From: a virus
Lineage: Duplodnaviria > Heunggongvirae > Uroviricota > Caudoviricetes
Length of the DNA stretch: 30,932 nucleotides
Strand: one strand, 5' to 3'
IMG/VR virus record: IMGVR_UViG_2529293142_000025
Coordinates: 1 to 30,932 of that record
Positions within the stretch are counted from its first letter, which is position 1; the number at the start of each line of letters is the position of its first letter. The notes under the pieces were generated by a model. That model ran no database searches. It saw only the letters and a list, made by a program, of their open reading frames with translations, and was not told the DNA's origin. Of the stretch, positions 336 through 20,891 are shown piece after piece. A program made the translations under genes and the position numbers.

Positions 336-336
336 A

Positions 337-777
337 TTAAAACTCCCCGAGAACCTGGTCAATCTTGCCGCAGTCAAACACCCACGGCATCGTATTACCG
401 GTTTTAGCGTTGGCGTTATCCGGTTGTTTCTGGAACGCAACACTGCGTGCCGTGATGATGTCGCCGCTGACCTTGTTGCGGATCACGATAACGTTATTCC
501 CCCATGTGGCAGAAGACTGGCTCTGTGCGTTATACGCCAGCGACAATTTTTTATTTGTCGGTGATGTCTTCAGAAGGTTAACGGTAATCGTCCCGCTTTT
601 TTCTGCATGGAGGCTGTGCATTACTTCACCATCAGCACCGATGGTCATGGTGTTTTTAGGACCGCCCATCGCAACCACAATCCCCTCTTCAGAACTTGCA
701 GAACCGTACCCGAGGTCAATCGAACCGGTCGGCCCGGTCAGCGTCGCAGTGACATCCATAAAAGAATAGGTAGACAT
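337..777 (-). CDS. putative tail tube protein (contractile-tail type)
   Basis: 146 aa ORF directly downstream of the sheath-like gene; size and position typical of a tube protein; family assignment from memory only. Confidence 0.4.
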   Translation of the reverse strand: MSTYSFMDVTATLTGPTGSIDLGYGSASSEEGIVVAMGGPKNTMTIGADGEVMHSLHAEKSGTITVNLLKTSPTNKKLSLAYNAQSQSSATWGNNVIVIRNKVSGDIITARSVAFQKQPDNANAKTGNTMPWVFDCGKIDQVLGEF

Positions 778-787
778 TCACTTCCCC

Positions 788-1933
788 TTAGCGAACAACG
801 TTAATCTGTACGTCAGCGTAATGAACCGCGCCTGCAAGTTTTATTGCAGCCTGAATCACCGGAGCCTTACGGGCTTCACGTTCTGATTGTGCCTGTTCAT
901 CCAGCGGCTGGGCGTATACGTAATAACCTTTGGGCAGTGTGTCACCTGATGACAACTGACCAAGGTCGCCCCCGTTCCATACACCCGGAGCAATCAGTCC
1001 ATTCTGAACGGCCTGATCCAGTGATTTTTCAACATTTGATAACAGTCGGGTAATACCGGCTTCAGTCTGGGGAACTTTCGTGGTGCTGGTATAAAGCAGG
1101 TTATAGAGGTTGGTCTGCACATAATTCTGTAACCAGTCCAGGCCGTGGCGTTCATCAAAGAAATCGCCGTTAGCCATCACTCCCTGCTGGAGGATAGCCG
1201 TATCATTCTGGTAGTACACGAATACATTGCAGTTTTTTGCATCAAGTGCCGATGCCTGGCTGACTGTCAGTGTTTCATACCCGACACCCGGCTCCTGCTT
1301 AAACTTGAGCGTAATCGCGGTATTACTGCCATTGAAATTAACCGTGAATGCCCGGCCAAATGCAGATAACGCAGCGTATTTATTACCCGATGAATACTGA
1401 ATAAAACTGCGTGAATATCCGGCATTTTTCAGTTTTGATGCCAAATCATCGCTGGATGCAGTCTGCAGGCATTTCTCATCGCTTGTCGTAATCGCCAGAA
1501 TACGGCTTACAGAAGAGGATTCGATCGCCGCAGCCACTTTCAGCCAGTCTGCATCCGGAATATCTTCATCGTCTGCAATCCCCAGCCCATACCATGAAGT
1601 ATAATCGAGCATGGCATTCACAGCCTGCTCCAGCGTCTCAGGCGTGGCCTGTTCGCTGTCTCCCTTCGTTTTCACCCAACGACCAACAAAAACCTCCTGA
1701 GGTTTCGGTGATTGAGAGAAAAACACCTGCGCAGCCTTATATTCTGGTGATTCCACGCCAAAATCTTTTCCAATATCTTCCGCGGCAGAATAACGGCGAA
1801 TGCGCTCACTTACCGGAATGATTGTGGACGGGCCGAGAATGAGTAATGCACCAAAATTTCGCCCTGATGCTGCACGCGGCGACATGATCACATCAACATT
1901 AACAACGTTTGATACAGGCAAGCCCTGTGCCAT
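788..1933 (-). CDS. putative tail sheath protein
   Basis: 381 aa ORF after the head-completion genes, followed by the tube-like ORF; resembles sheath proteins of PBSX-like contractile tails (memory-based). Confidence 0.4.
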
Positions 1934-1936
1934 AGC

Positions 1937-2563
1937 TTAATCTCCGAAAAAGATGACTGGTGCTTCCACCAGCGATTTAATACCGTACTCGCGCACAACC
2001 TTCCGGCGCAGACGCACCGTCATATCGTAGCGGCGGACCCATTGCTGATTAATAAGTTCAGGGAAGGGAGTCAGACCTGTGTAATCGCCAAGAGACAGCC
2101 CCAGCGCATTCAGTGCTGCGTTGTTCTGCGGTACAGATATACCGTCACGAAACCGGGACGCATACACCATCCCCGCCGGACCATAAAACGAAGCCATACA
2201 CTCAATCGTTTCATGCCGCCAGAGCTGAGAGCCATCATCGGTCTGTCTGGTGAATGCCGGACTGTCATCACCTGACCATCCGATAACCCCAAACGCACAC
2301 CAGTTCGTTTCAGCCGGTAGCAGTGGCGGCTGCTCTTTCTGCCAGCGCGGACGAACCATCCCGGCAGACAGACCGGAAACGTTACGCATCCACTGGCTTA
2401 ACAGCCTGTCGAGCGCTTCGTCATAATCCGGATCGCCACTGGTTGGTATCAGCCATCCGCGCTCTGTGCTGGTGTTATTGCTCAACCGGAGTTCCCCCAT
2501 CAAACGGCAGCAACTCACAATGCGCCTGAACGAATCCGACACCATAAGCTGTATACGGGTCAA
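1937..2563 (-). CDS. phage structural protein (neck/tail completion), start uncertain
   Basis: 208 aa ORF in structural operon; track start is TTG and overlaps the upstream gene by 89 nt; internal ATGs at about 2500 and 2392 are alternative starts. Confidence 0.35.
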   Translation of the reverse strand: MTRIQLMVSDSFRRIVSCCRLMGELRLSNNTSTERGWLIPTSGDPDYDEALDRLLSQWMRNVSGLSAGMVRPRWQKEQPPLLPAETNWCAFGVIGWSGDDSPAFTRQTDDGSQLWRHETIECMASFYGPAGMVYASRFRDGISVPQNNAALNALGLSLGDYTGLTPFPELINQQWVRRYDMTVRLRRKVVREYGIKSLVEAPVIFFGD

Positions 2564-2864
2564 CGAAGGTCACACGGTAATCACGGCCCTGATACGTCAC
2601 GATATCGGAATCACGGCCAGTCTGTCCCTGCGTCAGTCGCTCAGTCGTCACAATCAGAATTGCACCACTGATTACCTGCCCTGCCTGCATACGGCGGTTT
2701 TCCAGAGAGCGATCAACAGTTACGACTCCGGCAAACTGCTTTTTAACTTCACTGTCGCTGCCGATCCCGTCCTCATCCACCGTTTGCACTCGGCGTGTTA
2801 CCCACAAATTGAAGTCGCAAAAATCGGGGTCAAAAAGCACATCTGTTACATCAAGAGTCGGCAT
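2475..2864 (-). CDS. phage structural protein (head-tail joining region)
   Basis: 129 aa ORF, same strand and tight spacing within structural operon. Confidence 0.4.
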   Translation of the reverse strand: MPTLDVTDVLFDPDFCDFNLWVTRRVQTVDEDGIGSDSEVKKQFAGVVTVDRSLENRRMQAGQVISGAILIVTTERLTQGQTGRDSDIVTYQGRDYRVTFVDPYTAYGVGFVQAHCELLPFDGGTPVEQ

Positions 2865-3405
2865 CTTTATCCCTCACAACATGGGTAATGGCTCTGCGAT
2901 ATTGCCCGGTGTCAATTAATGGTTTCGCCAGATCGGTTCCCGGAGATTCGCCAGCAGCACGCCGGGCAAGTTCCAGTGTTGCCCCCTTGCGCCCCCGACG
3001 AGCCCGGGCTTCAACAGTGCTGTCAGCAAGCGGCGTAAAGCCGGTAATGGTCATGTAACGCCTGACGCCATTAGCGGCCAGCGTTCCGGCACGGTTGAGT
3101 GCGCGTTCTGCTCCCGCAGCATTACCATCAAGTGCAGCCTGCGCCGCGGCTTTGAGCTGCGGCACCGTCTGCTCTTCTGCCGATTTAACGCCGGGGACCA
3201 GGTGAGGTCGTGGCGGGATGTTCTGCTCTGGTGAGCCGTATTCGTTGAGGTAACCGATGCCCGCATTACCAAACGGAACATCATCCCGCCCGCTGTCTTC
3301 CGAAGGGATGCCGACCAGCACATCTTTTTTGGTTAACGACCTGAGCGCATCCAGAATGGCCTTAGCGTTATCCACCCTCGTTGTTACACCGCTTTTGAAA
3401 CTCAT
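2851..3405 (-). CDS. phage structural protein (head-tail joining region)
   Basis: 184 aa ORF; ATGA-type coupling to the upstream gene at 3402-3405. Confidence 0.4.
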
Positions 3406-3809
3406 AGCTGGCGACCGCCTGCACCGAACATCGTGATCAACTGATAAAATTCAGCGCCATATCGGGTGTTATTCCAGAAGCCTGCATCAGGATTCAGCGT
3501 CGCGCTGATGTCATAACTGACACTTACCTTGTCAACGGACTTTGAGGACTGAACACCATTGGTTGAGCCGCCAGGGCCACCAGCCAGCATCGCCCTGCTG
3601 TCAGCCGCCCAGAGCGTCATGTAGTGCGCAACGAACAATCCGGCAAAGTACGGAAACAACTTTTTGCCGGTGACGTTTTCGCTCAGCAGTTCATCTGCCA
3701 GATTCAGACGAAACTGGATTTGCGCTTCGGGATATTTGGCAGGGTCAGCAAACTGCGGGAAGTCGCGGCGAAAATCACTTACCGCTGGCAGACTTTGATT
3801 CTTTGGCAT
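3402..3809 (-). CDS. phage structural protein (head completion/connector-like)
   Basis: 135 aa ORF within operon. Confidence 0.4.
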
Positions 3810-3996
3810 TTTTTACCTCGTTACGCGCGTCTGTGGCTTTGCCAACGGATACTTCCGCGTGCGCACGAGTGAACCAGTGCGTGGCAACGTCTTCCTCCAC
3901 AGCATGACGGCCTTTAACAAACTCGCGCCGTGAACCGTCGGGAAGCGTGAGCACAAACGGGGTATGTACGTGTATTACTGCATTATTTTTTGCCAT
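3775..3996 (-). CDS. small phage protein downstream of capsid gene
   Basis: 73 aa ORF between major capsid gene and head-completion genes. Confidence 0.3.
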
Positions 3997-4037
3997 CGGG
4001 TCATCCTTAATGGCCCCGCCAGGGGGCCATATGGCTG

Positions 4038-4979
4038 TTAAATGCCATCAACGTACGAAATGGTTTCTTTGTACACTGGCTCGACTGCACCCAGCTTGCC
4101 GTAGTAAGTGACGATCTGATACAGACCGCGATACTGCACCGGCACGCTCTGAAGCGGAACCAGCGGGTAGCGGACGTATTTTTTATCGTTGGTGTACGCA
4201 ACCATGCGATCCTTATTCCCCACACCACGGCCTTTCAGCCATTTAACCGCGCGGATATTCAGCGGAACACCGTTCTGGTGATAGCTGATGGTGTTGGTCT
4301 GAAGGTACGTCAACAGGGACTGGTTACCCGCAGATGAAACGATGATGCTGGACAACAGAGCAAACTGCTCAGGCGGGATCAGCAAATCACGCGGAACCAC
4401 AGAGTAACCGGAAGCGGCCCACGCATCAGACAGCACCTGGTTAATGCTTGCGCGGATTTCGTCCGGTGTTGAGGTTGCCCACGTTTTGGCAGCGTTGTTG
4501 ACAGGCACACCGTCCAGGGTAACAAGACCTTTCAGGTTTAATGCGGAATCGCCAACATATACCTGTTCATCGTTATCCATCTGCCATTTCAGTTGCATAC
4601 CGTCATACTTCTGCGTATCAATCGGGCGGCCGACCTGCTGAGCAGCCTGCAATTCTATGACCGTCCAGCCAAGTTCCATCCCCCACAGGTTCAGCGGGTT
4701 ACCGGATTTGCCGATATCCACGTTCACGCCAGCAATAGCGGTTGAGTCTTTGCCTACCCAGTTTTTGCCATTCGGATTTGCACCAGTACCCGCAGCGGCG
4801 AAGCTGGTATTCGTCCAGCTGGAAATGTCATCTGCGATGGAGACATCTTCACGCAGTTGGATATCGCGGGTCCAGGTGTACCCCACCAGTGGCAGGTTCA
4901 GCGTCTGGTCGAGTCGCTCCAGCTCCCCGATGAGAAAGGCACCAGAGCTGTCAACGGTTGCCTGATCAAAAGTAATCAT
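4038..4979 (-). CDS. putative major capsid protein
   Basis: 313 aa ORF in the expected position after scaffold-like and decoration-like genes; typical size. Confidence 0.5.
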   Translation of the reverse strand: MITFDQATVDSSGAFLIGELERLDQTLNLPLVGYTWTRDIQLREDVSIADDISSWTNTSFAAAGTGANPNGKNWVGKDSTAIAGVNVDIGKSGNPLNLWGMELGWTVIELQAAQQVGRPIDTQKYDGMQLKWQMDNDEQVYVGDSALNLKGLVTLDGVPVNNAAKTWATSTPDEIRASINQVLSDAWAASGYSVVPRDLLIPPEQFALLSSIIVSSAGNQSLLTYLQTNTISYHQNGVPLNIRAVKWLKGRGVGNKDRMVAYTNDKKYVRYPLVPLQSVPVQYRGLYQIVTYYGKLGAVEPVYKETISYVDGI

Positions 4980-4990
4980 TCGTCTGTTCC

Positions 4991-5416
4991 TTAAATCTTC
5001 CAGGAAATTTCTGCATTGCCGTCAGCATCACCGGCACCTGTGAATTCAGCGTTGGTCAGCACCACGTTTTTGCCACTGACTGACGTGGCCATGAATCCAC
5101 CCAGCGGCACTTTGATGGATTCATCAGTGGAGACGACAACGTATACCGGGTCGCCTTTTTTGATGGTGCTGGCATCAAAATCAGAACCGAGATTAACGGT
5201 CACGTAGCCACGCTTCATTGCGTCGCCCGGGAAGTTCTTGCCACTCCCCACCTGGCGAACCATGTCCGGCTGCGAAGTGGTCGGATAAGGGCGCACATAG
5301 ATCCCCTTCACCTTGTCTGCGGTATCACCATCTGCCAGCGGCACGAAAAAACCGTCATCATCGTATTTACCAGCCAGCCCATAGGCAGCAAAGGCGTTAT
5401 CGGATTTAAGGACCAC
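4991..5416 (-). CDS. phage head protein (decoration/structural-like)
   Basis: 141 aa ORF immediately upstream of capsid gene. Confidence 0.4.
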   Translation of the reverse strand: MVLKSDNAFAAYGLAGKYDDDGFFVPLADGDTADKVKGIYVRPYPTTSQPDMVRQVGSGKNFPGDAMKRGYVTVNLGSDFDASTIKKGDPVYVVVSTDESIKVPLGGFMATSVSGKNVVLTNAEFTGAGDADGNAEISWKI

Positions 5417-5498
5417 CGGTTCGACGGTTAAGTCCTGCGGGCGAGAGACAGCCCGGCAATGCCAACAGGCATCCGGTACAGAAATACATTATTCATTT

Positions 5499-6373
5499 TT
5501 ACCCTTTACGGTTTGCCCAGAATTCGGCGTTTTGTTTGTTCAGGGAAGCGATACTGGTCATGCCCATGTTTGGGCGCTGTGCATCGCCGGTGGTGGCGCG
5601 GGTGTTTCGCCCTTTGGCAATCTCAGACACGGCATTAAACGCCATGTCGACCGATTGTTTCGGTAATTTGCGGATATCCGCATCACCGACTATCTGGCGA
5701 ACCAGCGTTTTGTCAGCAGAAGCCAGAACCTCACGTTTGAACGCGGTCGGTTTCATCTTACGGCTCAGATCAATACCCGGAACAATAACTTCGGCACGCC
5801 AGGCTGCGTCACCAGTAATCGTGGTTTCCTCTTCATCGTCCTCGCCGTCACCGGTCGGATTATCGTCAGGCTTATTATCGTTATCGCCCGTGGCATTTCC
5901 TTCCAGCTTAGCCAGCAGGGCTTTCAGTAATGTTTTGAGGTCATCATCACTGTCGCCGGTTGGGCCTCCCCCATCTCTGGTGCTTTGTCCGGTAGTGGTT
6001 GCTGCGGGGACAGGTTGATATTGAGATTAACGCCCTGCGGCAAATCCCCCTCATCTCCTGTAACCGATGCGGGAGCCGACTCCACCAGTTCGTTCATGGT
6101 GTCGGCATCTCCTGTCTTGATGGCCGCACGCATGCGGTTCCACCAGTTTTTCTTTTGATTTGCCATTGTGTCTCTGTCTCCAATTGCACAACGATTTCCG
6201 GCTCTGCCTTTAGGGACAAGAGCCACATGGTTTCCGGTAATATCGACCTGCTCAGCTTTACCTGGCTCGGTCTGCTCGTACTCCGCGTCATAGCCGCACG
6301 ACACTTCGCGCAGGCCATCTTCGATAAGCTGAATGGCGTTTTCGTCTTTGACGATAAGGTCAGCCAGCATCAA
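5499..6373 (-). pseudogene. head-assembly (scaffold-like) gene with a reading-frame break
   Basis: 149 aa ORF (5924..6373) ends at TGA, but a second frame with an acidic scaffold-like stretch (DNDNKPDDNPTGDGEDDEEETT) is open from 6026 down to 5499 with no start codon before ATG 5756; frames would join with one extra base in the C5 run at 5968-5972. Confidence 0.35.
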
Positions 6374-6717
6374 ATCAGACTGCTCACCGTCCCGCGCCGG
6401 ACATTCTGGAGGTGCCCGACAGCAAGCTCTTTCCAGTTCTCGGGATTTACCAGCCGCACATTCCCGTTTTCATCTTCAGGATGCAGAATCGTGATGCTCA
6501 TCCCTTCGAATGAGGCAAGCGTGGCCGGATGGAATACCTGCTCAGGAGAACGCGTGACGACTATTTCACCGAACTTATCGGGTTTCAGTTTTGGCAGGTC
6601 ATCAGCACCATAGAGCTGCTTACCTGTTCGTCCTATCGGCACGTCTTTGCACAGCAACGAGCCGTCAGCCAGCTGATAGCGGGTTTCCCCCAGCCGGGTA
6701 TTGAAAAAATATTTCAT
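6370..6717 (-). CDS. phage head-assembly protein (may belong to the same gene family as the adjacent ORF)
   Basis: 115 aa ORF, ATGA overlap with the 149 aa ORF. Confidence 0.35.
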
Positions 6718-6731
6718 GTGTTACCTGCGAT

Positions 6732-7505
6732 TCAGGCGGGATAAGAATGGGAGGTGGGAAAAACGATTTCTTTATAACAGCGACAATTCGGGAGCTCGCC
6801 AGCGTGACCGGTCATGCCATCAAGCGTTGGAGGTTTGCCCCATTCGACAAATTTACCTTCCATTTCCCGATGAGAATGCCTGACGTCACCATCTTCGGCT
6901 GTACGCCAGATATAACCATTCGAACCAATTGCCAGCGCACGCGCCTGATCCAGCGCGCCGGTTGCACGTCCAAGTTCAGTACGGGCAATCAGGTCAGCTC
7001 TGGACTTTGCTATATCACCCGATGCGGCTATTTCTTTAGCAAAATGTTCCGCTCTCCCACCGGTCACAACAGCTTCAATCGCCCGATTCTGGATGTCGTA
7101 CACCCTGTCAGCCGCCTCGAGGGGTAGCGATTTAATGTACTTAACCTGTTCAGCAACGATGGATTTCATCACCTGCCCTGGCGGGGCACTGTTTACCAGA
7201 TTGCGTAGCTCACGGCTGATGGTTTTGCTGTGTTTACGCCACTGCTCATCATTCTTGCGCACAATATCGGCGGTAAAGTTTTCCGCGACCTTTGTCGCCC
7301 AGGGGGTGATGATTTCACTGTAGCGTTCCAGCGCCTCAATAATTTCCGTGATACTGTCATTTGAACCATCGTAGTGACCATTTACGATGTCCCCTACCGC
7401 CCGCGCTATCCTGCGTAGGCTGGTTCGATACCGGATTTCCGCCTGACGGTTCCTGCGGTTCGTCATCAGGTTCGCCGATGCCGGGCGGCGCTTCATCTTC
7501 GGCAT
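6732..7505 (-). CDS. head morphogenesis protein, Mu F-like
   Basis: C-terminal motif ...WRTAEDGDVRHSHREMEGKFVEWGKP...GHAGELPNCRCY typical of F-like minor head proteins; located after portal; start uncertain (all ATG starts overlap portal by over 100 nt). Confidence 0.55.
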   Translation of the reverse strand: MPKMKRRPASANLMTNRRNRQAEIRYRTSLRRIARAVGDIVNGHYDGSNDSITEIIEALERYSEIITPWATKVAENFTADIVRKNDEQWRKHSKTISRELRNLVNSAPPGQVMKSIVAEQVKYIKSLPLEAADRVYDIQNRAIEAVVTGGRAEHFAKEIAASGDIAKSRADLIARTELGRATGALDQARALAIGSNGYIWRTAEDGDVRHSHREMEGKFVEWGKPPTLDGMTGHAGELPNCRCYKEIVFPTSHSYPA

Positions 7506-8823
7506 TCTCGATGTCCTCGTCGGTAATGGATGCCCCGATGCCGGTTACGTCAGAATTTTCTCGCAAATCAGTCATAGCGGCCTTCAGTGTCATCAGACCA
7601 TCACCCAGCGCTGTACTGATTGCGTTGGTAGTGTTTAACGCCACCGTTGAGCGATCGACATCAGACATTTGCCAGAGCGGGTTAAACTCAAACGTGAAAT
7701 CGTCCGGCAGCGGCTTGCCAAGCTCCGAACGATGCATGATGTCCAGTATCCGCCGCACCGGAAGACGTAAACGCCTCTCCTGCAACGAACTGATGCGGTC
7801 GTAATAGTTGGCAAGGTCTGCATCACCGGTAGAAAATCCTTTCGGGGACTGTCCGAACAACCGCACCAGTGGGATACCAACAGCGCCACTAATCTGTTCT
7901 GCAAACTGTGATAGGATGTCATCCAGACCACTGAAGCTGTACTGATGCGTTTCAAACTTATCCCGCGAGTCCATGAGCGTCATGCCTTCATTGCTCTGGA
8001 ACTGTCGAATCAGGTCGATATTCTTCAGCAACGCTTCATACGCAGGACCACCAAGTGCGATAAGCTCGCGTAGCTTCTCCACGCTGTAGGTACGCAAATG
8101 CGCTTTGTAGACCAGCTGCGCCGCGCCGACAGTAGCGCTGTCGAACGCGGTAAGACGATCCCAGATACGCTCTACAACCGACATTCCCCATTCGTTCTCG
8201 GTCATCTTCTGCTGAAATGGCAGCGTGACGCCATCAAAGCGAATCAGTCGACTGTGATGAATGCGCCAGGCAGGAATTCCCGTTGCTGTGGTCACCACAT
8301 CGTAAAACTCAGGTTTACCCAGGTCCGGCCCCATATCTTTAATGCGGCGGGTCAGTACCGGGTCAATCATCCAGCGGTCGAGCGGGAGAATCCCCTTAAA
8401 CTTGCCCTTACCGATGGTTTCGGGTCGCAGCGGGGTCATTGGTGCCTGCCCCTCAATCATGATGAAACCCACCGCGCCGCCGTAGAGACGCGACCATTTC
8501 AGCACGTCATTCAGCGCATCCCAGATTTGCAACTCATCCAGTTGTGATTCGAGAATGCCACGATCTTTTGCATCAATTTCCGAAGTGATGCGAATGCCTT
8601 TGCGGGTCATATCATCCGGGATAGCATCGACTGCTTCGCCGATGATCCAGGATGAACGATAGGACCATTCCACCAGCATGCGGTTACGACTGGTGAAATT
8701 AGCCCGGTAGGTGGATGCTGAGTGCTGGTTAGGTGTCTGCATCCCTACGCGGGCAATAAAATTCTCATAACCATCAGCTGTGGCCTGCGCAGTTCGCCGC
8801 AGGGCTTGTTTGTTTCGTGCCAT
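7357..8823 (-). CDS. portal protein
   Basis: 488 aa ORF immediately after terminase large subunit, acidic C-terminus; start shares position 8823 with terminase stop. Confidence 0.6.
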   Translation of the reverse strand: MARNKQALRRTAQATADGYENFIARVGMQTPNQHSASTYRANFTSRNRMLVEWSYRSSWIIGEAVDAIPDDMTRKGIRITSEIDAKDRGILESQLDELQIWDALNDVLKWSRLYGGAVGFIMIEGQAPMTPLRPETIGKGKFKGILPLDRWMIDPVLTRRIKDMGPDLGKPEFYDVVTTATGIPAWRIHHSRLIRFDGVTLPFQQKMTENEWGMSVVERIWDRLTAFDSATVGAAQLVYKAHLRTYSVEKLRELIALGGPAYEALLKNIDLIRQFQSNEGMTLMDSRDKFETHQYSFSGLDDILSQFAEQISGAVGIPLVRLFGQSPKGFSTGDADLANYYDRISSLQERRLRLPVRRILDIMHRSELGKPLPDDFTFEFNPLWQMSDVDRSTVALNTTNAISTALGDGLMTLKAAMTDLRENSDVTGIGASITDEDIENAEDEAPPGIGEPDDEPQEPSGGNPVSNQPTQDSAGGRGHRKWSLRWFK

Positions 8824-10226
8824 CAGGCCTGTCTCCCCAGCTGTTCCCAGATATCCAGCGATGTATCAATTGGCGCGAAGGCCATAATGAATGCGTCAGC
8901 AACGTTTGGTGACGGTATCTCGCGTTTTGCGAGGTCTTTTTTACTTTCGACCATCACACGTCCGTTACGGTCAAAATCGCGATGAGGTGTTGTCAGTTCC
9001 AGTTTCAGCTTTTCAAGCAACGGACAACGAGAATCTATGCTGATCAGCTCATCCACAGGATACTGTTCTCCGTTGTTAATGGCGTTAAACGTATTTCTGA
9101 AACGGTCAGCCACCAGCCACCATGCCTGAGCCTTAAGATTTGCGAAAAAGTCTTTGTTGGGGATGCCGTTGTATTCGTCATCTGGCTCATGCACACCAGC
9201 ACCGGCGTTAAACCTCTGGTAATTCACACGTCTCGCGTATGCATTCTCGCTCTTCCGGTCAGCGTTAATTTCAGAGAATTTAGCACCGGCAGACGCACCA
9301 ACACCGATAGAGTCGTAAACAATTTCTGCTTCACGCTCCAGCGCCGCCTGATAAGTACGCTGGCAGCTCTTCAGTAATTCATCTTCTTTGGCCTTCCATT
9401 CGTCGGCCCAGAAAACAACGGATCCGTGACGGTAAACGTTAGCGCACTTATCTGTACCACTGTCAGCCACGTCAAAGCCAATACGCTTTCTTCCACTGGG
9501 TTCGAAATTTAACGTTTTGTGCGCATCCACTGCGGCTTCTATCCAGGACAGTTTGATGATTGCCGCATCATCATCAGACTCCGGAACGCCCTCATACACA
9601 TGTTTAAAACCATCCGGATCACGGCGTCGCGCCGCGTCGATAACCTTAAGCATGGTGTCAGACAGAAACGGATTTTCGTCATAGTTAATTTTGCGGATGA
9701 GAGTGCCTTCGGGCGGATCAACAACGAAGTTGCGCCAGACGAAATCAGTAACAAGTCCGGGATTGAATATGAACCAGCATTCCGAACCCTCTTTACGGAT
9801 CGTTGGCTCCAGAATTTTCCACTGGTATTCCGTCAGTGCGTGGGCTTCTTCCAGCCACAACACATCGATCCCCTCCAGTGACTTAATTTCTTCGATGTTG
9901 CGCCATAATCCATAAAAAACAAATTCCGAGCCAGTAACCCGGTTAATGATTTTGTTGTTCAGAATACGGAAACGGTGCCGCAGGCCAAACCTGTCTATCT
10001 GAATTTTGAGCAGGGTATACACCGACTCTTCGATTTTGTTCTGGATCTGACGGGCACAACAAAAACGCAGGGTGTATTTATTCGACAGAAATATGGCAAT
10101 ACCAGCGGCATCCCATGATTTTGACGATGACCGGCCACCATAAAGCACTTTGTTACGTGCCCGCGTAGTCCAGAAACTACGTAAAGCCGGATTAAGCGTC
10201 GGTTTGGATGTCAGAGTAGAAGTCAT
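8823..10226 (-). CDS. terminase large subunit
   Basis: Walker A-like YGGRSSSKS near N-terminus, about 470 aa; start chosen at ATG 10224-10226 (alternative ATG at 10244); the longer track ORF start is probably not used. Confidence 0.8.
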   Translation of the reverse strand: MTSTLTSKPTLNPALRSFWTTRARNKVLYGGRSSSKSWDAAGIAIFLSNKYTLRFCCARQIQNKIEESVYTLLKIQIDRFGLRHRFRILNNKIINRVTGSEFVFYGLWRNIEEIKSLEGIDVLWLEEAHALTEYQWKILEPTIRKEGSECWFIFNPGLVTDFVWRNFVVDPPEGTLIRKINYDENPFLSDTMLKVIDAARRRDPDGFKHVYEGVPESDDDAAIIKLSWIEAAVDAHKTLNFEPSGRKRIGFDVADSGTDKCANVYRHGSVVFWADEWKAKEDELLKSCQRTYQAALEREAEIVYDSIGVGASAGAKFSEINADRKSENAYARRVNYQRFNAGAGVHEPDDEYNGIPNKDFFANLKAQAWWLVADRFRNTFNAINNGEQYPVDELISIDSRCPLLEKLKLELTTPHRDFDRNGRVMVESKKDLAKREIPSPNVADAFIMAFAPIDTSLDIWEQLGRQA

Positions 10227-10941
10227 TGAGGTCACGCTCTCCATTGCCATCATCAATACCTGCATCACGGCGAAGACGATCAGCCTCCAGAGACACCTTA
10301 TCGGTGGCGGCCTTGCGGTAGGCTGTATCAGCAAATATTTTTCCTACCGTCGCAAGCGTGCCAACGATGGACTCAATACGAACTGTATTGCGCATCATTG
10401 CTTTCTCGGCGGCGCTGATATTTTCCATCAGCATCTTCCTTTCCTGGTCCCCATTAGCATCTTCCAGCGACACCAGCCACCGACCAATATTCTCTGCAGC
10501 GACAAGGTTGTTAGCACGAAGGCGAAATAATTCGTCCTCGAGCGTCAACGCTTTAGCGTCCTCTATCACCTCATCTTTGAGCAGAAGGCGACGGGCATAA
10601 CCACCGTGTTTTAATGCCTGCTGGTTACCGGGTTGGAATGGGTTAGTCGGGGGATCGGTACGCATTCCGCGTATCGGTTTCGTATCCGGTGTAGCTTCTG
10701 TTTTTGGTTGCGTACCTTTTTGTGTAAGGCCAGTAATGGCAGGCTTTCTGCTGGTACGCACTTTTCTTTTTTGCGTACCATTTTTGCAAACCTGCGTACC
10801 GCCACTGCGTACCCAACCAAGCTTTTTAGCCCTCTTCCTGATAGCCCCTTCTGTTACGCCATATTTCTCGCCTATATCACGGAGGCTAAGGACTCCGGCC
10901 CGGTATGCCGTTTCGATGGCCTCCCAGTCCGGTTTTGCCAT
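10192..10941 (-). CDS. terminase small subunit (HTH DNA-binding)
   Basis: 249 aa ORF directly upstream of large subunit; N-terminal HTH-like LSLRDIGEKYGVTEGAIRKRAKKLGW. Confidence 0.6.
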   Translation of the reverse strand: MAKPDWEAIETAYRAGVLSLRDIGEKYGVTEGAIRKRAKKLGWVRSGGTQVCKNGTQKRKVRTSRKPAITGLTQKGTQPKTEATPDTKPIRGMRTDPPTNPFQPGNQQALKHGGYARRLLLKDEVIEDAKALTLEDELFRLRANNLVAAENIGRWLVSLEDANGDQERKMLMENISAAEKAMMRNTVRIESIVGTLATVGKIFADTAYRKAATDKVSLEADRLRRDAGIDDGNGERDLNDFYSDIQTDA

Positions 10942-10999
10942 GAATTTTTCCTCTTAGTGACATTATCGCAGCCCCTCACCGAAGGGCTGCTGTAATGCC

Positions 11000-11188
11000 T
11001 TAACCCAGTTTCGCTCGCACCAGAGCATCTTTTGCTTCAAGCAATTTACGTAACCCAGCCGACTTTTCCGGACCGTCTGGCAAAGATTCATCCATTACTC
11101 TTGCCAGTTCACCAATTGGCTTACTCACTTCCTTTAACGAAGTCGGAAGATGCTCATAATTGAAATATTTCATAATTGACGATTCCAT
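11000..11188 (-). CDS. small hypothetical protein upstream of terminase
   Basis: 62 aa; AAGGAGA SD placed 6 nt before the second ATG of the track ORF. Confidence 0.35.
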   Translation of the reverse strand: MESSIMKYFNYEHLPTSLKEVSKPIGELARVMDESLPDGPEKSAGLRKLLEAKDALVRAKLG

Positions 11189-11220
11189 CATTTCTCCTTA
11201 GTAAAACAATTATCAGGCGA

Positions 11221-11402
11221 TCAGTTCTGCATACACTGCCGGACACCGTCGACAATTTCACAGACCTGAGAAGCTGTATCGAAAAGCTGGCGCGCCTTAT
11301 CCAGGCTGACGCATCCCACCAGGAAAAAGGCACCAGTATCGCTACCAGTGCCCATTTCGCCGCCGTTCGCGGCATTCTGTGTGTCCAGTGTTTTCGGCTC
11401 AT
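11221..11402 (-). pseudogene. lysis-associated lipoprotein (Rz1/o-spanin-like), frame broken in a homopolymer run
   Basis: ATG 11400-11402 with AGGTG SD encodes MSRKHWTHRMPRTAAKWALVAILVPF...; the next frame reads ...FFLVGCVSLDKARQLFDTASQVCEIVDGVRQCMQN-stop at 11221; one extra base in the run at 11324-11328 (T5 on the coding strand) yields a 61 aa lipoprotein precursor with basic n-region, hydrophobic core and LVGC lipobox. Confidence 0.45.
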
Positions 11403-11416
11403 AACACACCTGGTTA

Positions 11417-11800
11417 TCAGCGTTTCAACTGAAAGTGAGGCCCGTCTTTCAGTGTTTTCCAGTCCCCGCCCCATTCGATGGCAGTTCCCAGCTCTGCGGC
11501 AGCCTGCTTAAATGCCTGCGCGATTTTCTCGTACAGAGGCCAGTCCCATGACACCTGGCTGCCAATGTAGGCCACAACATCCACCGCATCACCGGTCAGG
11601 TGGCGGCTGTTCATGGTCTGGCTCTTGCCTTCTGCAACCAGCTGTTTCTGGCGTTCTTTCGTGCGCAGACCTTCTGTAACACCGAAATCAACCTCCGTCA
11701 GCTCCAGCGCACGGCGAACGACAGCAACCAGCTGTGGTTTGACGCCCTCCAGATTTTTTTCACTGCGACGACTGAATCTGAATTTACCCGACATGCTCAC
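11417..11800 (-). CDS. endolysin, peptidase M15 (L-alanyl-D-glutamate/D-Ala-D-Ala peptidase type)
   Basis: 127 aa with H..D and GGDW-type motifs of M15 peptidases; sits in the lysis cassette after holin genes. Confidence 0.65.
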   Translation of the reverse strand: MSMSGKFRFSRRSEKNLEGVKPQLVAVVRRALELTEVDFGVTEGLRTKERQKQLVAEGKSQTMNSRHLTGDAVDVVAYIGSQVSWDWPLYEKIAQAFKQAAAELGTAIEWGGDWKTLKDGPHFQLKR

Positions 11801-12072
11801 CTCCGGAATGAAAGGATTTTTGAAACGTTCCCGCGTGCGCGTATTACCAGCACGCAGAACAGCAAATTAAGCCCCACCGCCAGCCAGTTCGCCGCTAACG
11901 GGCGACCACACAGATAGCTGAGGGGCGCAAAGGCATACAGCAGCATCAGCAGCCAGGCCAGCCATGACATCAGCGGTTTGTGTCTGGAGTCACGACGACG
12001 ATAAAAAAAGAGCGTCAGCACGATAACCGTGCATAACGCCACATTCAGCAATCCGGGAAGGTTACTTAACAT
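11797..12072 (-). CDS. small multi-TM membrane protein (holin/antiholin-like)
   Basis: about 91 aa with 2-3 hydrophobic segments; ATGA coupling to endolysin start at 11797-11800. Confidence 0.4.
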   Translation of the reverse strand: MLSNLPGLLNVALCTVIVLTLFFYRRRDSRHKPLMSWLAWLLMLLYAFAPLSYLCGRPLAANWLAVGLNLLFCVLVIRARGNVSKILSFRR

Positions 12073-12454
12073 TGCCGCCTCCTCCACCCCGCAGGCGGGA
12101 GAACAGGCCGGACACCAGTGATGCGATATCCTGCTGGTGGATGAACGACAGAATCTTCACCGACACCACCGCCACCAGCACCGCACACAGTGCATCCGCA
12201 GATGTACCGTCATAACCTGTTTTTGATGCAATCCAGGCTGACAGTACACGCGCCCCCAGTACACCAACAATGAACGACACCAGAAAATGTGCCGCCACAC
12301 GCCAGGCTGAAATCTTCTGCGGCATCGTTGCCACAAACAACGCCCCGGCGAACGCACCAAACACAATCCCGAAATCCGTTCCGGTAAACAGCCCGAATAC
12401 CGTCGCCCCGCCGAGCGCCGCAGCCGTGCCGGAACCGGATAAGGGTTCAGACAT
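12062..12454 (-). CDS. putative holin
   Basis: 130 aa Gly/Ala-rich membrane protein starting MSEPLSGSGTAAALGG; AGGAG SD 8 nt upstream of ATG 12452-12454; the track ORF upstream extension is not supported. Confidence 0.5.
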   Translation of the reverse strand: MSEPLSGSGTAAALGGATVFGLFTGTDFGIVFGAFAGALFVATMPQKISAWRVAAHFLVSFIVGVLGARVLSAWIASKTGYDGTSADALCAVLVAVVSVKILSFIHQQDIASLVSGLFSRLRGGGGGNVK

Positions 12455-12545: not shown

Positions 12546-12698
12546 TTATTCAGATTTGCGCAGTAAAGGCCGGAGTACGGCCAGCGCCATCGCCACCAGC
12601 ACACCATCTGCCAGCACCGACATCAGCCGTCCGGTGAAATCCACCACCACTACCAGAAACAGCAGGATGGCAGCCAGCACAAGGCGCGCACTTTTCAC
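12546..12698 (-). CDS. small hydrophobic protein (50 aa, two predicted TM segments)
   Basis: GTG start with GGAG SD 8 nt upstream, overlapping the stop of the TerB-like gene; VKSARLVLAAILLFLVVVVDF...; below the ORF-track size cutoff. Confidence 0.3.
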   Translation of the reverse strand: MKSARLVLAAILLFLVVVVDFTGRLMSVLADGVLVAMALAVLRPLLRKSE

Positions 12699-13120
12699 AG
12701 GTACTGCTCCAGCGGTAACTGCAGCGCCTGAGCAATTTTCTTGAGCTGTGCTTCTTCATCCGGACCAATGCCATCCTGGTCAGCGATATCCAGACACAGG
12801 CACAGCACATTAACTGCATCATCAGTACCGGCAACATCAGCCAGCTGACGAAGGGCTTCGGCATTGGCAGAACGCGGCGACGCTTCATAACGGGCGCGGA
12901 TATTTGCACTCATTTGTGCAATCTCACCGGAGAACGGCGCAAAGGCAGGAAGTGCTGCAATGGTTTTCTCCAGTACCGCGACTTCTTTCGCGTCACAGGT
13001 GTCGTCAGCATATGCAATGGAATACGCGCCCCAGACGGTCGCCTCCACTGCGTCGCGGTTCTCCATCTTCTTCACTTCGGTAATGGCCTTGCGGGTTTTC
13101 TTTTTGAAAATACCAAACAT
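12695..13120 (-). CDS. TerB-like domain protein (cargo gene)
   Basis: 141 aa; two repeats of the pattern hydrophobic-A-x-D-[DG]-x4-E (AYADDTCDAKE and DIADQDGIGPDEE) as in TerB/DjlA-N helical domains; memory-based. Confidence 0.45.
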   Translation of the reverse strand: MFGIFKKKTRKAITEVKKMENRDAVEATVWGAYSIAYADDTCDAKEVAVLEKTIAALPAFAPFSGEIAQMSANIRARYEASPRSANAEALRQLADVAGTDDAVNVLCLCLDIADQDGIGPDEEAQLKKIAQALQLPLEQYL

Positions 13121-16963: not shown

Positions 16964-17105
16964 ATAGAGACAAAAATATTAATCTGAAAAATATTTATTT
17001 CACGTCGTATATTTGATTATTTAATGTGCAGGTGCAATGACTTTTATTTTTGTTGTGTATATAATCAAATATATGGTTATTTTTCACCCTGCGTATTCAG
17101 CGCGC

Positions 17106-20229: not shown

Positions 20230-20891
20230 ACAAAACCAGCTGCCTTCCGGCGTTCATACTCCCGTTTCAGCAACTCAATTGGTGTTGGCCCCGACGGGCG
20301 TTTTGGTGCTGCCAGTTGCCGCCGTACGGGCGGAACGCTGAAGCCGTCACCAACATGCTTTGCCCATTTCGCTAGTTGCCGTTCTGCAAGTCGTTTTAAC
20401 TCCCCTTCGGTCATCTGGCGCTCAATCCCCTTTGAACGCATCTCGAGGCAAATGTGATACAGCACAGGCTGAGACCACGGGTATTTATCGCTTCCGTCGT
20501 ATCGCCAGGACTCATTGCGCCAGCGGCGGTACTCCTTCATCACAACATCAACCGTCAGACCGAATGGATTGGCTCCGCTTTCCGAAATCAGTGCCACAAA
20601 CTCAGCCAGGTCCGGAGGCCATGTTTCACCCGTCCGGCAGCGGTCCATGCACTGGCGGCAGACCTGTCGGATTTGCTGCTCAGTCATCGCGCCAATCTGT
20701 GCAATCCAGAGCTTCGAAGGTGCGGCCCCGTTCTTCTGGGTCCAGCGGTTCGAATAAATCTCCCCCATGAGTTCCCACAGCTTCCAGGCAGTTTCCGTCG
20801 TTGATAAATCCGTTTTCACGTTCCCACTGCTCACGTGCTGCCCGAATTTCCTGAACTGCCCGTGATGCGGTGCCACCTGGCGCGGCTGCAT
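20226..20891 (-). CDS. replication protein P-like (helicase loader)
   Basis: 221 aa; central and C-terminal similarity to lambda P (..YPWSQPVLYH.. vs ..YPWKSNAHYW..); SD AAGGGGGTGA before ATG 20889-20891. Confidence 0.6.
   Translation of the reverse strand: MQPRQVAPHHGQFRKFGQHVSSGNVKTDLSTTETAWKLWELMGEIYSNRWTQKNGAAPSKLWIAQIGAMTEQQIRQVCRQCMDRCRTGETWPPDLAEFVALISESGANPFGLTVDVVMKEYRRWRNESWRYDGSDKYPWSQPVLYHICLEMRSKGIERQMTEGELKRLAERQLAKWAKHVGDGFSVPPVRRQLAAPKRPSGPTPIELLKREYERRKAAGFV

What the first reader, a model, noticed from the sequence alone, without database searches (positions are those of the whole stretch)
11221..11402. Hidden lysis lipoprotein gene revealed by correcting a T5/A5 run
Neither annotated frame gives a sensible protein, but inserting one base at 11324-11328 creates a textbook lipoprotein precursor (MSRKHWTHRMPRTAAKWALVAILVPFFLVGC + 30 aa mature peptide with 3 Cys) immediately after the endolysin with a good SD. 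This is the expected place for an o-spanin or Bor-like lipoprotein. No partner i-spanin with coiled coil was found, so the spanin complement is unclear.
Basis: partly seen in the sequence, partly recalled or inferred. Interest (0 to 1): 0.5.

Follow-up and report, generated by a model that had tools for sequence, protein, structure and literature searches.

The report
Frameshifted phage lysis lipoprotein gene
A one-base gap in a run of T's hides a real, widely conserved 60-residue lipoprotein gene at the end of a prophage lysis cassette; the gap looks like a sequencing error or recent decay, and the protein appears to replace the usual two-protein outer-membrane "spanin" on its own.

Summary
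Observation confirmed. On the minus strand, 15 nt after an M15 endolysin, the ORF starting at 11402 breaks at a T5 run (A5 at 11324-11328 on the plus strand). The ORF is under purifying selection (pN/pS 0.21, against 0.9-1.7 in the other frames).

The T5 allele was found nowhere else: 0 in IMG/VR, 0 in metagenome contigs, 0 of 474 places in complete E. coli genomes. It is one of at least five gene-breaking single-base deletions in this window. That points to sequencing error or prophage decay, not programmed frameshifting.

The protein is the one Kongari et al. (2018) listed as the phiP27 "o-spanin". Their partner "i-spanin" turns out to be an antisense shadow of another gene, and it is absent from about 95% of loci. 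In 106 unique contexts no i-spanin-like partner is conserved.

The lipoprotein always follows the endolysin, across two endolysin types, three holin families and several phage backbones. It is almost mutually exclusive with Rz/Rz1, which fills the same slot. Most likely it handles the outer-membrane step of lysis without a dedicated inner-membrane partner; this is inferred, not shown.

The T-run is also the U-tract of a conserved terminator-like hairpin inside the gene.

The parts
11221..11402 (-). Frameshifted copy (182 nt instead of 183) of the P27-type lysis-cassette prolipoprotein gene. The intact product is 60 aa: MSRKHWTHRMPRTAAKWALVAILVPFFLVG|CVSLDKARQLFDTASQVCEIVDGVRQCMQN.
   Evidence: intact in relatives; PHROG 7528, 60/60, E 1e-38; pN/pS 0.21.
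11324..11328 (-). T5 run (A5 on the plus strand) that is one T short. Relatives have T6 (CCT TTT TTC) or T7. This is the site of the frameshift and also the U-tract of the hairpin element.
   Evidence: Alignment A1. The T5 25-mer is absent from IMG/VR and metagenome contigs and from complete E. coli genomes. The T6 allele is in 60 IMG/VR contigs. Codon choice holds the run: CCT 82/83, TTT 83/83, TTN 83/83.
11328..11353 (-). Conserved 11-bp hairpin with a GNRA loop (GGGCACUGGUA-GCGA-UACUGGUGCCU) directly followed by the U-run. It is an intrinsic-terminator-like element inside the signal-peptide coding region.
   Evidence: scan; -23 kcal/mol, z -4.9, 0/200 shuffles; pairs kept in 81-83 of 83 unique CDSs; third-position diversity 0.031 in the stem against 0.137 elsewhere; kept in Lelliottia L006 and in L227; absent in Mu-like L230.
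11311..11313 (-). TGC codon of the lipobox cysteine (Cys31 of the intact protein). It is out of frame in the window because of the upstream deletion.
   Evidence: Cys31, Cys48 and Cys57 invariant across the family.
11417..11794 (-). M15 family L-alanyl-D-glutamate peptidase endolysin. Its stop codon lies 15 nt upstream of the lipoprotein start.
   Evidence: PF13539, E 1.6e-12; PHROG 465 endolysin, E 8e-76; PGAP annotation in the relative.
11797..12072 (-). Holin of the 3-TMD family PF05449.
   Evidence: (PF05449 E 2e-21; PHROG 217 holin).
12062..12454 (-). Putative holin of family PF16931 (Phage_holin_8), the first gene of the cassette.
   Evidence: It is also present in cassettes that carry Rz/Rz1 instead of the lipoprotein.
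11000..11191 (-). Small soluble-protein gene (PHROG 1761/5120, unknown function) that marks the downstream boundary. It follows lysis cassettes whichever spanin type they carry, so it is not a specific partner.
   Evidence: L145 with Rz-type spanins; Mu-like L230.

Best explanation
Window 11221-11402 (minus strand) is a copy of the small outer-membrane lipoprotein gene that ends phiP27-type lysis cassettes (holin, holin, endolysin, lipoprotein). The copy is inactivated by loss of one T from a T6 run.

Shown: the gene is real, conserved and under purifying selection. The deletion is unique to this window. It is one of at least five single-base deletions that break otherwise intact genes here. 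I judge sequencing or assembly error the more likely cause (about 60%) and genuine prophage decay the alternative (about 40%).

Inferred mechanism of the intact protein:
- It is translated from Met1 and exported by Sec.
- It is lipidated at Cys31 and cleaved by signal peptidase II.
- It is sorted by Lol to the inner leaflet of the outer membrane, because residue +2 is Val or Ala and never Asp.
- The 29-residue tail is a proline-free, amphipathic, heptad-patterned helix with two invariant cysteines (Cys48, Cys57), which probably form disulfides.
- After holin and endolysin have acted, it carries out or triggers the last step of lysis, breaching the outer membrane. It does so in place of an Rz/Rz1 spanin pair and without a dedicated phage-encoded inner-membrane partner.

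The T-run also serves as the U-tract of a conserved hairpin in the mRNA. That element probably attenuates or terminates transcription unless the polymerase is antiterminated, and it makes the site prone to slippage.
For: Identity of the gene:
- Relatives have intact T6/T7 alleles.
- PHROG 7528 matches full length, and there are 140 homolog clusters.
- pN/pS is 0.21 (0.15 for the mature part, 0.20 for residues 1-9), against 0.89 and 1.67 in the other frames.

The deletion is private:
- T5 allele 0 hits, T6 allele 60 contigs in IMG/VR.
- 0 hits in metagenome contigs.
- No 100% match among 474 places in 310 complete E. coli genomes.

Error or decay context:
- All 5 single-base gaps against the 98.2%-identical relative are bases missing from the window, mostly in short runs.
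- They split the DUF2213 head gene into 3 frames and truncate a 168-aa gene.

Lysis role:
- In a holin-anchored sample, 68 of 80 cassettes carry the lipoprotein.
- It is always the gene after the endolysin, behind either M15 or GH108 endolysins.
- It is also found with a third holin family and in lambdoid and Mu-like backbones, at only 33-53% identity.
- Cassettes with the same holins and endolysin but no lipoprotein carry an embedded Rz/Rz1 in the same slot: L189, L165, L173, L174.
- Counts over all loci: lipoprotein only 210, Rz only 4, both 2. In both of the last the lipoprotein copy is N-terminally truncated, and one is also frameshifted.
- The closest backbone relative has an overlapped spanin pair in the same slot.
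- The complete phiP27 genome has no other spanin candidate.

No partner:
- No conserved i-spanin-like ORF lies within 1.3 kb in 106 unique contexts.
- 38 of 86 loci run endolysin to lipoprotein directly.
- The small ORF c17 and the PF16931 holin also occur with Rz/Rz1.
- The published phiP27 i-spanin ORF is antisense to a PHROG 36812 gene and has stop codons in a diverged copy.

Protein features: lipobox and Cys31, Cys48, Cys57 are invariant. The mature part is predicted helical, is amphipathic, has no proline, and has Val/Ala at +2.
Against: - No experiment links this protein to lysis; the argument rests on position and distribution.
- A 29-residue helix anchored in the outer membrane is about 4 nm long and cannot reach the inner membrane. 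The known spanin mechanism (a periplasm-spanning complex and membrane fusion) therefore cannot apply as such, and no alternative mechanism is demonstrated.
- The region between lysis genes and terminase is a known insertion site for accessory genes, so linkage alone is not proof.
- Mutual exclusivity with Rz/Rz1 rests on only 4-6 Rz-type cassettes.
- AF2 confidence for the mature part is modest (pLDDT 60-68).
- Whether the frameshift is an error or a real mutation cannot be decided without the reads.
Confidence: 0.6

Rival explanations
1. It is the outer-membrane half of a true two-component spanin. The inner-membrane partner exists but was not recognised: an unlinked phage gene, one of the small membrane ORFs (c8/PHROG 1115 or c17/PHROG 4906) in some phages, or a host protein.
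For: Kongari et al. 2018 classed phiP27 as a separated two-component system. Small TMD proteins lie directly upstream of the lipoprotein in about 45% of loci. Conserved cysteines recall the intermolecular disulfides of Rz/Rz1 (established knowledge, not tested here).
Against: - The published i-spanin ORF is an antisense artefact present in about 5% of loci.
- c8 and c17 are missing from 38 of 86 loci, including the window.
- c17 also precedes Rz/Rz1.
- c17 has only about 15 periplasmic residues and c8 has a C-terminal TMD.
- No i-spanin-like topology is conserved within 1.3 kb, nor found in the lysis region of the window, and no Rz/Rz1 homolog is found in the complete phiP27 genome.
- Both holins persist when Rz/Rz1 replaces the lipoprotein.
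Confidence: 0.15
2. It is an accessory (moron) lipoprotein unrelated to lysis, for example a superinfection-exclusion or host-fitness factor in the manner of Cor, Llp or Bor. It merely sits at the recombination-prone junction after the lysis genes, and phages of this type simply lack an outer-membrane lysis function.
For: - The junction between endolysin and lipoprotein accepts unrelated insertions: c25, the PHROG 36812 gene and a KilA-N-like gene.
- A terminator-like hairpin separates the GH108 endolysin from the small-gene trio in some loci.
- About 13% of phages in the 2018 survey had no recognisable spanin.
- The mature peptide does not resemble typical proline-rich o-spanins.
Against: - The gene stays linked to the endolysin, not to the variable downstream genes, across two endolysin types, three holin families and lambdoid, P27-like and Mu-like backbones down to 33% identity.
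- It is nearly mutually exclusive with Rz/Rz1 in the same slot, and is degraded when both are present.
- No promoter-like site lies ahead of it.
- It sits 3-15 nt from, or overlaps, the endolysin stop codon, which suggests co-translation from the late transcript.
- There are no hits to defence or exclusion models or to the Bor family.
Confidence: 0.2
3. The T5 run is functional: a programmed -1 ribosomal frameshift or a phase-variable tract that switches the lipoprotein on and off.
For: - The run is a slippery U-rich tract next to a very stable hairpin.
- A -1 slip on CCU UUU U would restore the lipoprotein frame.
- A second, independent frameshift occurs at the same run in L224.
Against: - T5 occurs in no other sequence among hundreds of relatives, whereas T6 or T7 is universal.
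- The hairpin lies upstream rather than downstream of the run, the wrong geometry for -1 frameshift stimulation.
- The zero-frame product of the T5 allele is unconstrained sequence (pN/pS about 0.9-1.7).
- The window carries several other gene-breaking single-base deletions.
Confidence: 0.02

Closest known systems
phiP27 'o-spanin' (Kongari et al. 2018, BMC Bioinformatics 19:326; record coordinates 20706-20861; singleton o-spanin family)
   Same: It is the same protein family, 95% identical over 60 residues. It holds the same position after the M15 endolysin and has the same 30-residue, about 83% helical periplasmic part.
   Different: - The 2018 paper called it from Met10 (51 aa). Conservation and pN/pS of residues 1-9 support Met1 and 60 aa.
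- It was paired with a 64-aa i-spanin that I find to be an antisense shadow of a PHROG 36812 gene, absent from the window and from about 95% of loci.
- The window copy is frameshifted.
Lambda Rz1 and other o-spanins of two-component spanins
   Same: It is a small outer-membrane lipoprotein encoded at the 3' end of the lysis cassette, with conserved cysteine(s) in the mature part. It occupies the slot that Rz/Rz1 fills in sister cassettes.
   Different: - No embedded, overlapped or adjacent i-spanin gene.
- The mature part is helical and proline-free instead of proline-rich and unstructured.
- No sequence similarity to Rz1.
T1 gp11 unimolecular spanin (u-spanin)
   Same: A single gene product with an N-terminal lipoprotein signal that would handle the outer-membrane step alone.
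   Different: gp11 has a C-terminal transmembrane domain that anchors it in the inner membrane and a long beta-rich periplasmic domain. This protein ends 29 residues after the lipidated Cys and has no second hydrophobic segment.
Colicin lysis proteins / bacteriocin release proteins (Pfam PF02402 Lysis_col)
   Same: A very small lipoprotein (mature part about 28-30 residues) whose expression leads to envelope permeabilisation without an inner-membrane partner. The unusually long, conserved signal peptide recalls the stable, active signal peptides of release proteins (established knowledge, not tested here).
   Different: No supportable homology: 1 of 14 members hits PF02402 at E 0.07, far below threshold. 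It is encoded in phage lysis cassettes, not colicin operons, and its mature part is helical with two Cys. Dependence on phospholipase A is untested.
phiKT gp28 'disruptin' (cationic antimicrobial-peptide-like lysis protein)
   Same: It would be a non-spanin, single-component solution to outer-membrane disruption: a short amphipathic helix.
   Different: Disruptin is a soluble, strongly cationic peptide without a lipid anchor. This mature peptide is lipid-anchored and near neutral, with net charge -1 to +2.

Membership tests
o-spanin of a two-component spanin | N-terminal lipoprotein signal peptide with lipobox and lipidated Cys | tested here: met
   L-[VA]-G-C is invariant. A basic n-region and a hydrophobic h-region precede it. 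In the window itself this is met only after restoring the missing T.
o-spanin of a two-component spanin | Outer-membrane sorting (no Lol-avoidance Asp at +2) | tested here: met
   Residue +2 is Val (23) or Ala (5) in 28 members; +3 is Ser, Thr or Asn.
o-spanin of a two-component spanin | Gene located in the lysis cassette next to the endolysin | tested here: met
   15 nt after the endolysin stop in the window. The same arrangement holds in most of 86 + 80 loci and in divergent members.
o-spanin of a two-component spanin | Cognate i-spanin gene (N-terminal TMD plus periplasmic domain) that embeds, overlaps or adjoins the o-spanin gene | tested here: not met
   None in the window. None is conserved in 106 unique contexts. 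The published phiP27 candidate is an antisense artefact.
o-spanin of a two-component spanin | Complements an Rz1 (or Rz/Rz1) lysis defect; forms a periplasm-spanning complex | not testable with these tools
   Requires genetics and biochemistry. The 29-residue tail is too short to span the periplasm alone (inference).
Unimolecular spanin (T1 gp11 type) | N-terminal lipobox AND C-terminal transmembrane domain in one polypeptide | tested here: not met
   The lipobox is present, but there is no hydrophobic segment after Cys31 and the protein ends at residue 60.
Colicin lysis protein / bacteriocin release protein (PF02402) | Match to the Lysis_col profile above the gathering score | tested here: not met
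   0 of 14 members reach the threshold; the best is E 0.07 in one member.
Colicin lysis protein / bacteriocin release protein (PF02402) | Action depends on outer-membrane phospholipase A (PldA) | not testable with these tools
   Needs expression in pldA mutant and wild-type hosts.
Bor/Iss lipoprotein family | Match to the Lambda_Bor profile; about 97-aa lipoprotein | tested here: not met
   No Pfam or NCBIfam hit of any kind at E <= 1 or at E <= 10 over 14 members. The protein is 60 aa.
PHROG 7528 (phage protein family of unknown function) | Full-length profile match | tested here: met
   E 1.3e-38, positions 1-60 of 60, using the corrected sequence.
Programmed -1 ribosomal frameshift site | Slippery site conserved in the shifted configuration, with a stimulatory structure 5-9 nt downstream | tested here: not met
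   The T5 configuration is found in no relative. The hairpin is upstream of the run.
Intrinsic (Rho-independent) terminator (for the hairpin at 11328-11353) | Stable G+C-containing stem-loop immediately followed by a U-tract, conserved beyond what coding needs require | tested here: met
   -23 kcal/mol, z -4.9. 11 pairs plus T6/T7 are kept in 81-83 of 83 unique CDSs, synonymous diversity is depressed, and codon choice is forced. Termination activity itself is not testable here.

The most novel reading that the evidence does not exclude
The P27-type lipoprotein would be a third, single-component class of phage outer-membrane-disrupting protein, distinct from spanins and from disruptin. It is a 30-residue, disulfide-bearing amphipathic lipopeptide anchored only in the outer membrane, and it would functionally replace an Rz/Rz1 pair. 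It might work by destabilising the outer membrane or its tethering once the peptidoglycan is gone, or by activating a host factor as colicin release proteins do. Its expression would be gated by an intragenic terminator that only antiterminated late transcription reads through.
Probability: 0.35. Interest if true: 0.75.

Novelty: new variant of a known kind. Interest (0 to 1): 0.42.

Why it matters
For this window the practical message is ordinary. The "missing" gene results from a single-base deletion, one of several here, and should be annotated as a frameshifted or low-quality copy of a known conserved gene.

The broader point concerns phage lysis. The only published functional label for this family, the o-spanin of a two-component spanin in phiP27, rests on an i-spanin call that does not survive scrutiny. 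The lipoprotein nevertheless behaves genomically like the outer-membrane lysis component of hundreds of enterobacterial prophages, including Stx2e phages. It trades places with Rz/Rz1.

If it works alone, it extends the known ways in which phages breach the outer membrane. It would also be a very small, genetically tractable tool, testable with the existing lambda Rz/Rz1 complementation assay.

The intragenic terminator-like hairpin is a further, separately testable regulatory feature.

Tried and rejected
- **Family and RNA libraries.** Pfam, NCBIfam and PADLOC scans of the corrected protein and of 14 divergent members gave nothing usable. Rfam had no match for the hairpin region.
- **Structure.** AF2 returned only a single long helix at modest confidence. 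I did not run fold searches, because a lone helix would give meaningless matches.
- **Profile search.** Of 1.84 billion representatives only 25 were relatives, and none belonged to a named family.
- **Collection scans.** The genome-contig scan returned only 3 loci. The metagenome scan for the T5 allele returned none.
- **Candidate partners considered and rejected:**
  - c8/PHROG 1115 and c17/PHROG 4906: absent from many loci, and c17 also occurs with Rz.
  - The PF16931 'holin': also present in Rz-type cassettes.
  - DUF3927 and TerB upstream genes: present in only about 12 loci.
  - The downstream 63-aa gene: it follows both cassette types.
  - The in-frame upstream extension giving 84-aa gene calls: it overlaps the endolysin and is not conserved in other contexts.
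  - Met10 as the start, or a dual start: position 10 is Met, Val, Ile or Thr across the family.
- **Selection test on the phiP27 insert.** It failed at first for lack of variation and was resolved with a 67%-identical copy.
- **Literature.** The phiP27 genome paper (PMC127862) is not held. The 2025 Stx2e paper concerns only the holin. No paper describing a stand-alone o-spanin-like lipoprotein was found.
- **Programmed frameshifting or phase variation.** Rejected on allele counts.
Full report
**1. The observation**

The feature lies on the minus strand. A 127-aa ORF (11417-11800; PGAP-equivalent start at 11794) is an M15 peptidase endolysin (PF13539, E 1.6e-12; PHROG 465 'endolysin', E 8e-76). 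Two holin-family genes precede it: PF05449 at 11797-12072 and PF16931 at 12062-12454.

Fifteen nucleotides after the endolysin stop codon, an ATG at 11402 opens a frame that reads MSRKHWTHRMPRTAAKWALVAILVPF. At CC-TTTTT-CC (A5 at 11324-11328 on the plus strand) this frame runs into unconstrained sequence. The adjacent frame continues FFLVGCVSLDKARQLFDTASQVCEIVDGVRQCMQN and stops at 11221-11223.

**2. It is a real gene that is broken only here**

The window is a phiP27-like lysis cassette in a mosaic E. coli-type prophage. In E. coli C311 and E. coli W the same interval is a PGAP-annotated 183-nt CDS.

The DNA alignment shows T6 (C311) or T7 (E. coli W, through a synonymous TTC to TTT change) where the window has T5.

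| Test | Result |
|---|---|
| PHROG 7528 (unknown function) | 60 of 60 positions, E 1.3e-38 |
| Pfam, NCBIfam | no hit |
| Large protein database | 140 clusters from E. coli, Salmonella, Citrobacter, Cronobacter, Yersinia; labelled 'hypothetical protein' or 'Lipoprotein' |
| pN/pS, lipoprotein frame (66 unique CDSs) | 0.21 (mature part 0.15; residues 1-9 0.20) |
| pN/pS, the two other frames | 0.89 and 1.67 |

So the gene is coding and is read from Met1. Position 10 is Met, Val, Ile or Thr, so the 51-aa form called from Met10 is not the conserved start.

**3. Nature of the frameshift**

| Collection | T5 allele | T6 allele |
|---|---|---|
| IMG/VR viral contigs (25/26-mer) | 0 | 60 contigs |
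| Metagenome contigs | 0 | not scanned |
| 310 complete E. coli genomes, 474 matching places | none at 100% identity; best 98.6%, i.e. one gap | not counted |

The deletion is therefore private to the window. That excludes a conserved programmed frameshift or phase-variable tract.

It is also not alone. Against the closest backbone relative (E. coli Z1323CEC0005, 98.2% over window 20-10997), all five single-base gaps are bases missing from the window, at 5452, 5496, 5970, 6387 and 10986. Three are contractions of short homopolymer runs. They split the 406-aa DUF2213 head protein over three frames and remove the start of a 168-aa protein. The other genes compared are intact and 86-100% identical.

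Further run contractions occur at 17047, 23468 and 23699.

A deletion-only, homopolymer-biased pattern that hits essential genes suggests sequencing or assembly error. A decaying prophage is the alternative. The sequence alone cannot decide between them.

**4. What was already known**

Kongari et al. 2018 (PMC6139136) list phiP27 as having a 'separated' two-component spanin, the shortest in their survey at 62 periplasmic residues. Their supplementary table gives the i-spanin at 20348-20542 and the o-spanin at 20706-20861.

The o-spanin is this lipoprotein called from Met10: 51 aa, with a 30-residue periplasmic part predicted 83% helical. The phiP27 GenBank record itself annotates the wrong frame (L32).

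The 64-aa 'i-spanin' does not hold up:
- It has a TTG start and lies entirely antisense to a 90-aa ORF.
- That 90-aa ORF matches PHROG 36812 end to end (E 5e-20), while the 64-aa ORF matches nothing.
- In a 67%-identical copy of the segment the 90-aa frame stays open. Differences fall 23/10/50 by codon position and pN/pS is 0.24.
- In the same copy the 'i-spanin' frame acquires two stop codons, and that copy is not next to lysis genes.
- The segment is present in only 4-5 of the cassettes sampled and is absent from the window.

The published two-component assignment is therefore not supported.

**5. Genomic behaviour**

In 86 loci found through the protein, the gene is always the last gene of the lysis cassette:

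| Architecture | Loci |
|---|---|
| M15 endolysin then lipoprotein directly, as in the window | 38 |
| GH108-type endolysin, small membrane ORF c8 (PHROG 1115), with or without c17 (PHROG 4906), then lipoprotein | about 27 |
| Other insertions between endolysin and lipoprotein | remainder |

In 80 cassettes sampled through the holin, and so without bias towards the lipoprotein, 68 carry it.

The informative exceptions are L189, L165, L173 and L174. They have the same two holins and the same M15 endolysin, but an embedded Rz/Rz1 pair sits in the slot. In L189 the Rz gene starts 16 nt after the endolysin stop codon.

Over all loci the counts are:
- lipoprotein only: 210
- Rz only: 4
- both: 2

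In both loci of the last group the lipoprotein copy has lost its first 14 codons, and one copy is also frameshifted.

The closest backbone relative of the window has a different cassette in the same slot: lambda-type holin, GH104 endolysin, and an overlapped spanin pair made of a DUF2570 protein with an N-terminal TMD and an ORF with lipobox LSGC. The same small downstream gene and terminase follow.

Family members at only 33-53% identity again follow an endolysin directly. They do so with a third holin family (PF05106), with either endolysin type, in a Q-antiterminator lambdoid and in a Mu-like phage.

The complete phiP27 genome has no Rz/Rz1 homolog and no other small lipoprotein near the lysis genes. 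An independent survey found Rz in 277 of 279 Stx phages, with the metallopeptidase endolysin confined to the two-member Stx2e cluster (PMC8136144).

**6. No partner**

- In 106 unique contexts no i-spanin-like ORF (one N-terminal TMD plus at least 40 further residues) is conserved within 1.3 kb on either side.
- The window has no homolog of either spanin family and no such topology in its lysis region.
- c17 also precedes Rz/Rz1, and the PF16931 protein persists in Rz-type cassettes.
- The downstream 63-aa gene follows both cassette types.

**7. The protein**

- Cys31 (lipidated), Cys48, Cys57 and the lipobox glycine are conserved down to 33% identity.
- Residue +2 is Val or Ala, which predicts outer-membrane sorting.
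- The mature 30 residues are proline-free and near neutral. They are amphipathic (hydrophobic moment 0.35-0.53) with a heptad a/d pattern.
- They are predicted helical: AF2 gives one helix over residues 12-59 at pLDDT 60-68 in the mature part.
- The n-region of the signal peptide is unusually long, basic and conserved (M-x-R-K-H-W-T-H-R...).
- The family is compact, with 25 representatives among 1.84 billion.

**8. Most likely mechanism (inferred)**

A Sec- and LspA-processed lipopeptide, sorted by Lol to the outer membrane, performs or triggers the outer-membrane step of lysis after holin and endolysin have acted. It takes the place of Rz/Rz1 and has no dedicated phage inner-membrane partner.

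The classical spanin mechanism cannot apply unchanged, because about 4 nm of helix cannot span the periplasm. The protein fails the defining i-spanin criterion for an o-spanin. It lacks the C-terminal TMD of a u-spanin. It has no supportable homology to colicin lysis proteins (best E 0.07 in 1 of 14 members), and it is not cationic like disruptin.

It may work like a colicin release protein or like a membrane-destabilising lipopeptide; this is untested.

The rivals are an unrecognised partner (0.15), an accessory lipoprotein unrelated to lysis (0.20) and a functional frameshift (0.02).

**9. An unexpected extra**

The T-run is the U-tract of a hairpin: GGGCACUGGUA-GCGA-UACUGGUGCCU, followed by U5 in the window and U6 or U7 in intact copies.

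- The 47-nt fold has -23 kcal/mol, z = -4.9, and 0 of 200 shuffles fold as well.
- In 83 unique CDSs the 11 pairs are kept in 81-83.
- Codon 25 is CCT in 82, codon 26 is TTT in all 83, and codon 27 is always TTN, even when it encodes Leu.
- Third-position diversity is 0.031 in the stem against 0.137 elsewhere.
- The element persists in a 58%-identical Lelliottia copy and in the 33%-identical L227, where the inner stem is different but still complementary.
- It is partial in L229 and absent from the Mu-like L230.

This is an intrinsic-terminator-like element inside the coding region. It plausibly acts as an attenuator that antiterminated late transcription reads through. It also explains the invariant signal-peptide core, and it is a plausible hot spot for slippage: L224 has an independent frameshift at the same run.

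**10. Verdict**

As a feature of this window it is a broken copy of a known conserved gene. As a family it is an o-spanin-like lipoprotein that appears to lack an i-spanin, which makes it a new variant of a known kind and worth a simple complementation experiment.

Noticed in passing
window 11328-11353 (minus strand), with the T-run at 11324-11328: A conserved intrinsic-terminator-like hairpin (11 bp, GNRA loop, then a U-tract) lies inside the lipoprotein signal-peptide coding region. The fold is -23 kcal/mol with z -4.9. The stem and T6 are held at synonymous sites in 83 unique CDSs. It is kept in the Lelliottia copy and in L227 and is absent in Mu-like L230.
   Followed up: partly
window 5452, 5496, 5970, 6387 (also 10986, 17047, 23468, 23699): Further single-base deletions relative to a 98%-identical E. 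coli prophage, all missing from the window and mostly in short homopolymer runs. They split the DUF2213 head gene (about 5502-6717) into three frames and truncate the adjacent 168-aa gene (4994-5497). This indicates low-quality sequence or a defective prophage.
   Followed up: partly
L001 2339-2533 (+) = phiP27 record 20348-20542: The ORF published as the phiP27 i-spanin (Kongari et al. 2018) is antisense to a 90-aa gene (L001 2323-2595, minus strand; PHROG 36812). It has two stop codons in a 67%-identical homolog (L235), so it is almost certainly not a gene.
   Followed up: yes
L001 2621-2776 and 2127-2342 (phiP27 L32 and L31): The phiP27 record annotates the wrong frame across the lipoprotein gene: L32 reads MHGDF...FFPGGMRQPG. 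L31 is an ORF in the lipoprotein's reading frame that overlaps the end of the endolysin gene. The true 60-aa lipoprotein ORF (L001 2670-2852) is not annotated.
   Followed up: yes
L030 3662-3844 and 3862-3996 (and about 45% of related loci): Two small membrane-protein genes, c8 (PHROG 1115; 60 aa, C-terminal TMD) and c17 (PHROG 4906; 44 aa, N-terminal TMD), sit between the endolysin and the lipoprotein. c17 also sits directly before Rz/Rz1 in L173 and L174. They may be accessory lysis factors, comparable with Lcc6 of phage LambdaSo (bioRxiv 10.1101/2024.01.23.576932).
   Followed up: partly
L224 4186-4367; L144 3890-4023; L221 5386-5520: Other damaged copies of the lipoprotein gene. L224 has an independent frameshift at the same run (T6C1 instead of T6C2). 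In L144 and L221, which also carry Rz/Rz1, the first 14 codons are replaced, and L144 has a further frameshift.
   Followed up: yes
window 11000-11191 (minus strand): A small soluble-protein gene (PHROG 1761/5120, unknown function) follows the lysis cassette. Homologs sit in the same place after lipoprotein-type and Rz-type cassettes alike, and in a Mu-like phage (L230 3216-3404).
   Followed up: partly
window 11352-11402 (codons 1-17 of the lipoprotein gene): The signal-peptide n-region is unusually long, basic and conserved (M-x-R-K-H-W-T-H-R-x-P-R-x-A-A-K-W; net charge +4 to +6 plus two His; pN/pS 0.20 for residues 1-9). This hints at a role beyond export, for example timing or a stable signal peptide.
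   Followed up: no
window 12546-13120 (minus strand): A TerB-family gene (12695-13120) and a DUF3927 small membrane-protein gene (12546-12698) lie directly upstream of the holins. The DUF3927 ORF clustered in about 12 of the related loci and a TerB-like ORF in about 11, so neither is a fixed part of the cassette.
   Followed up: partly
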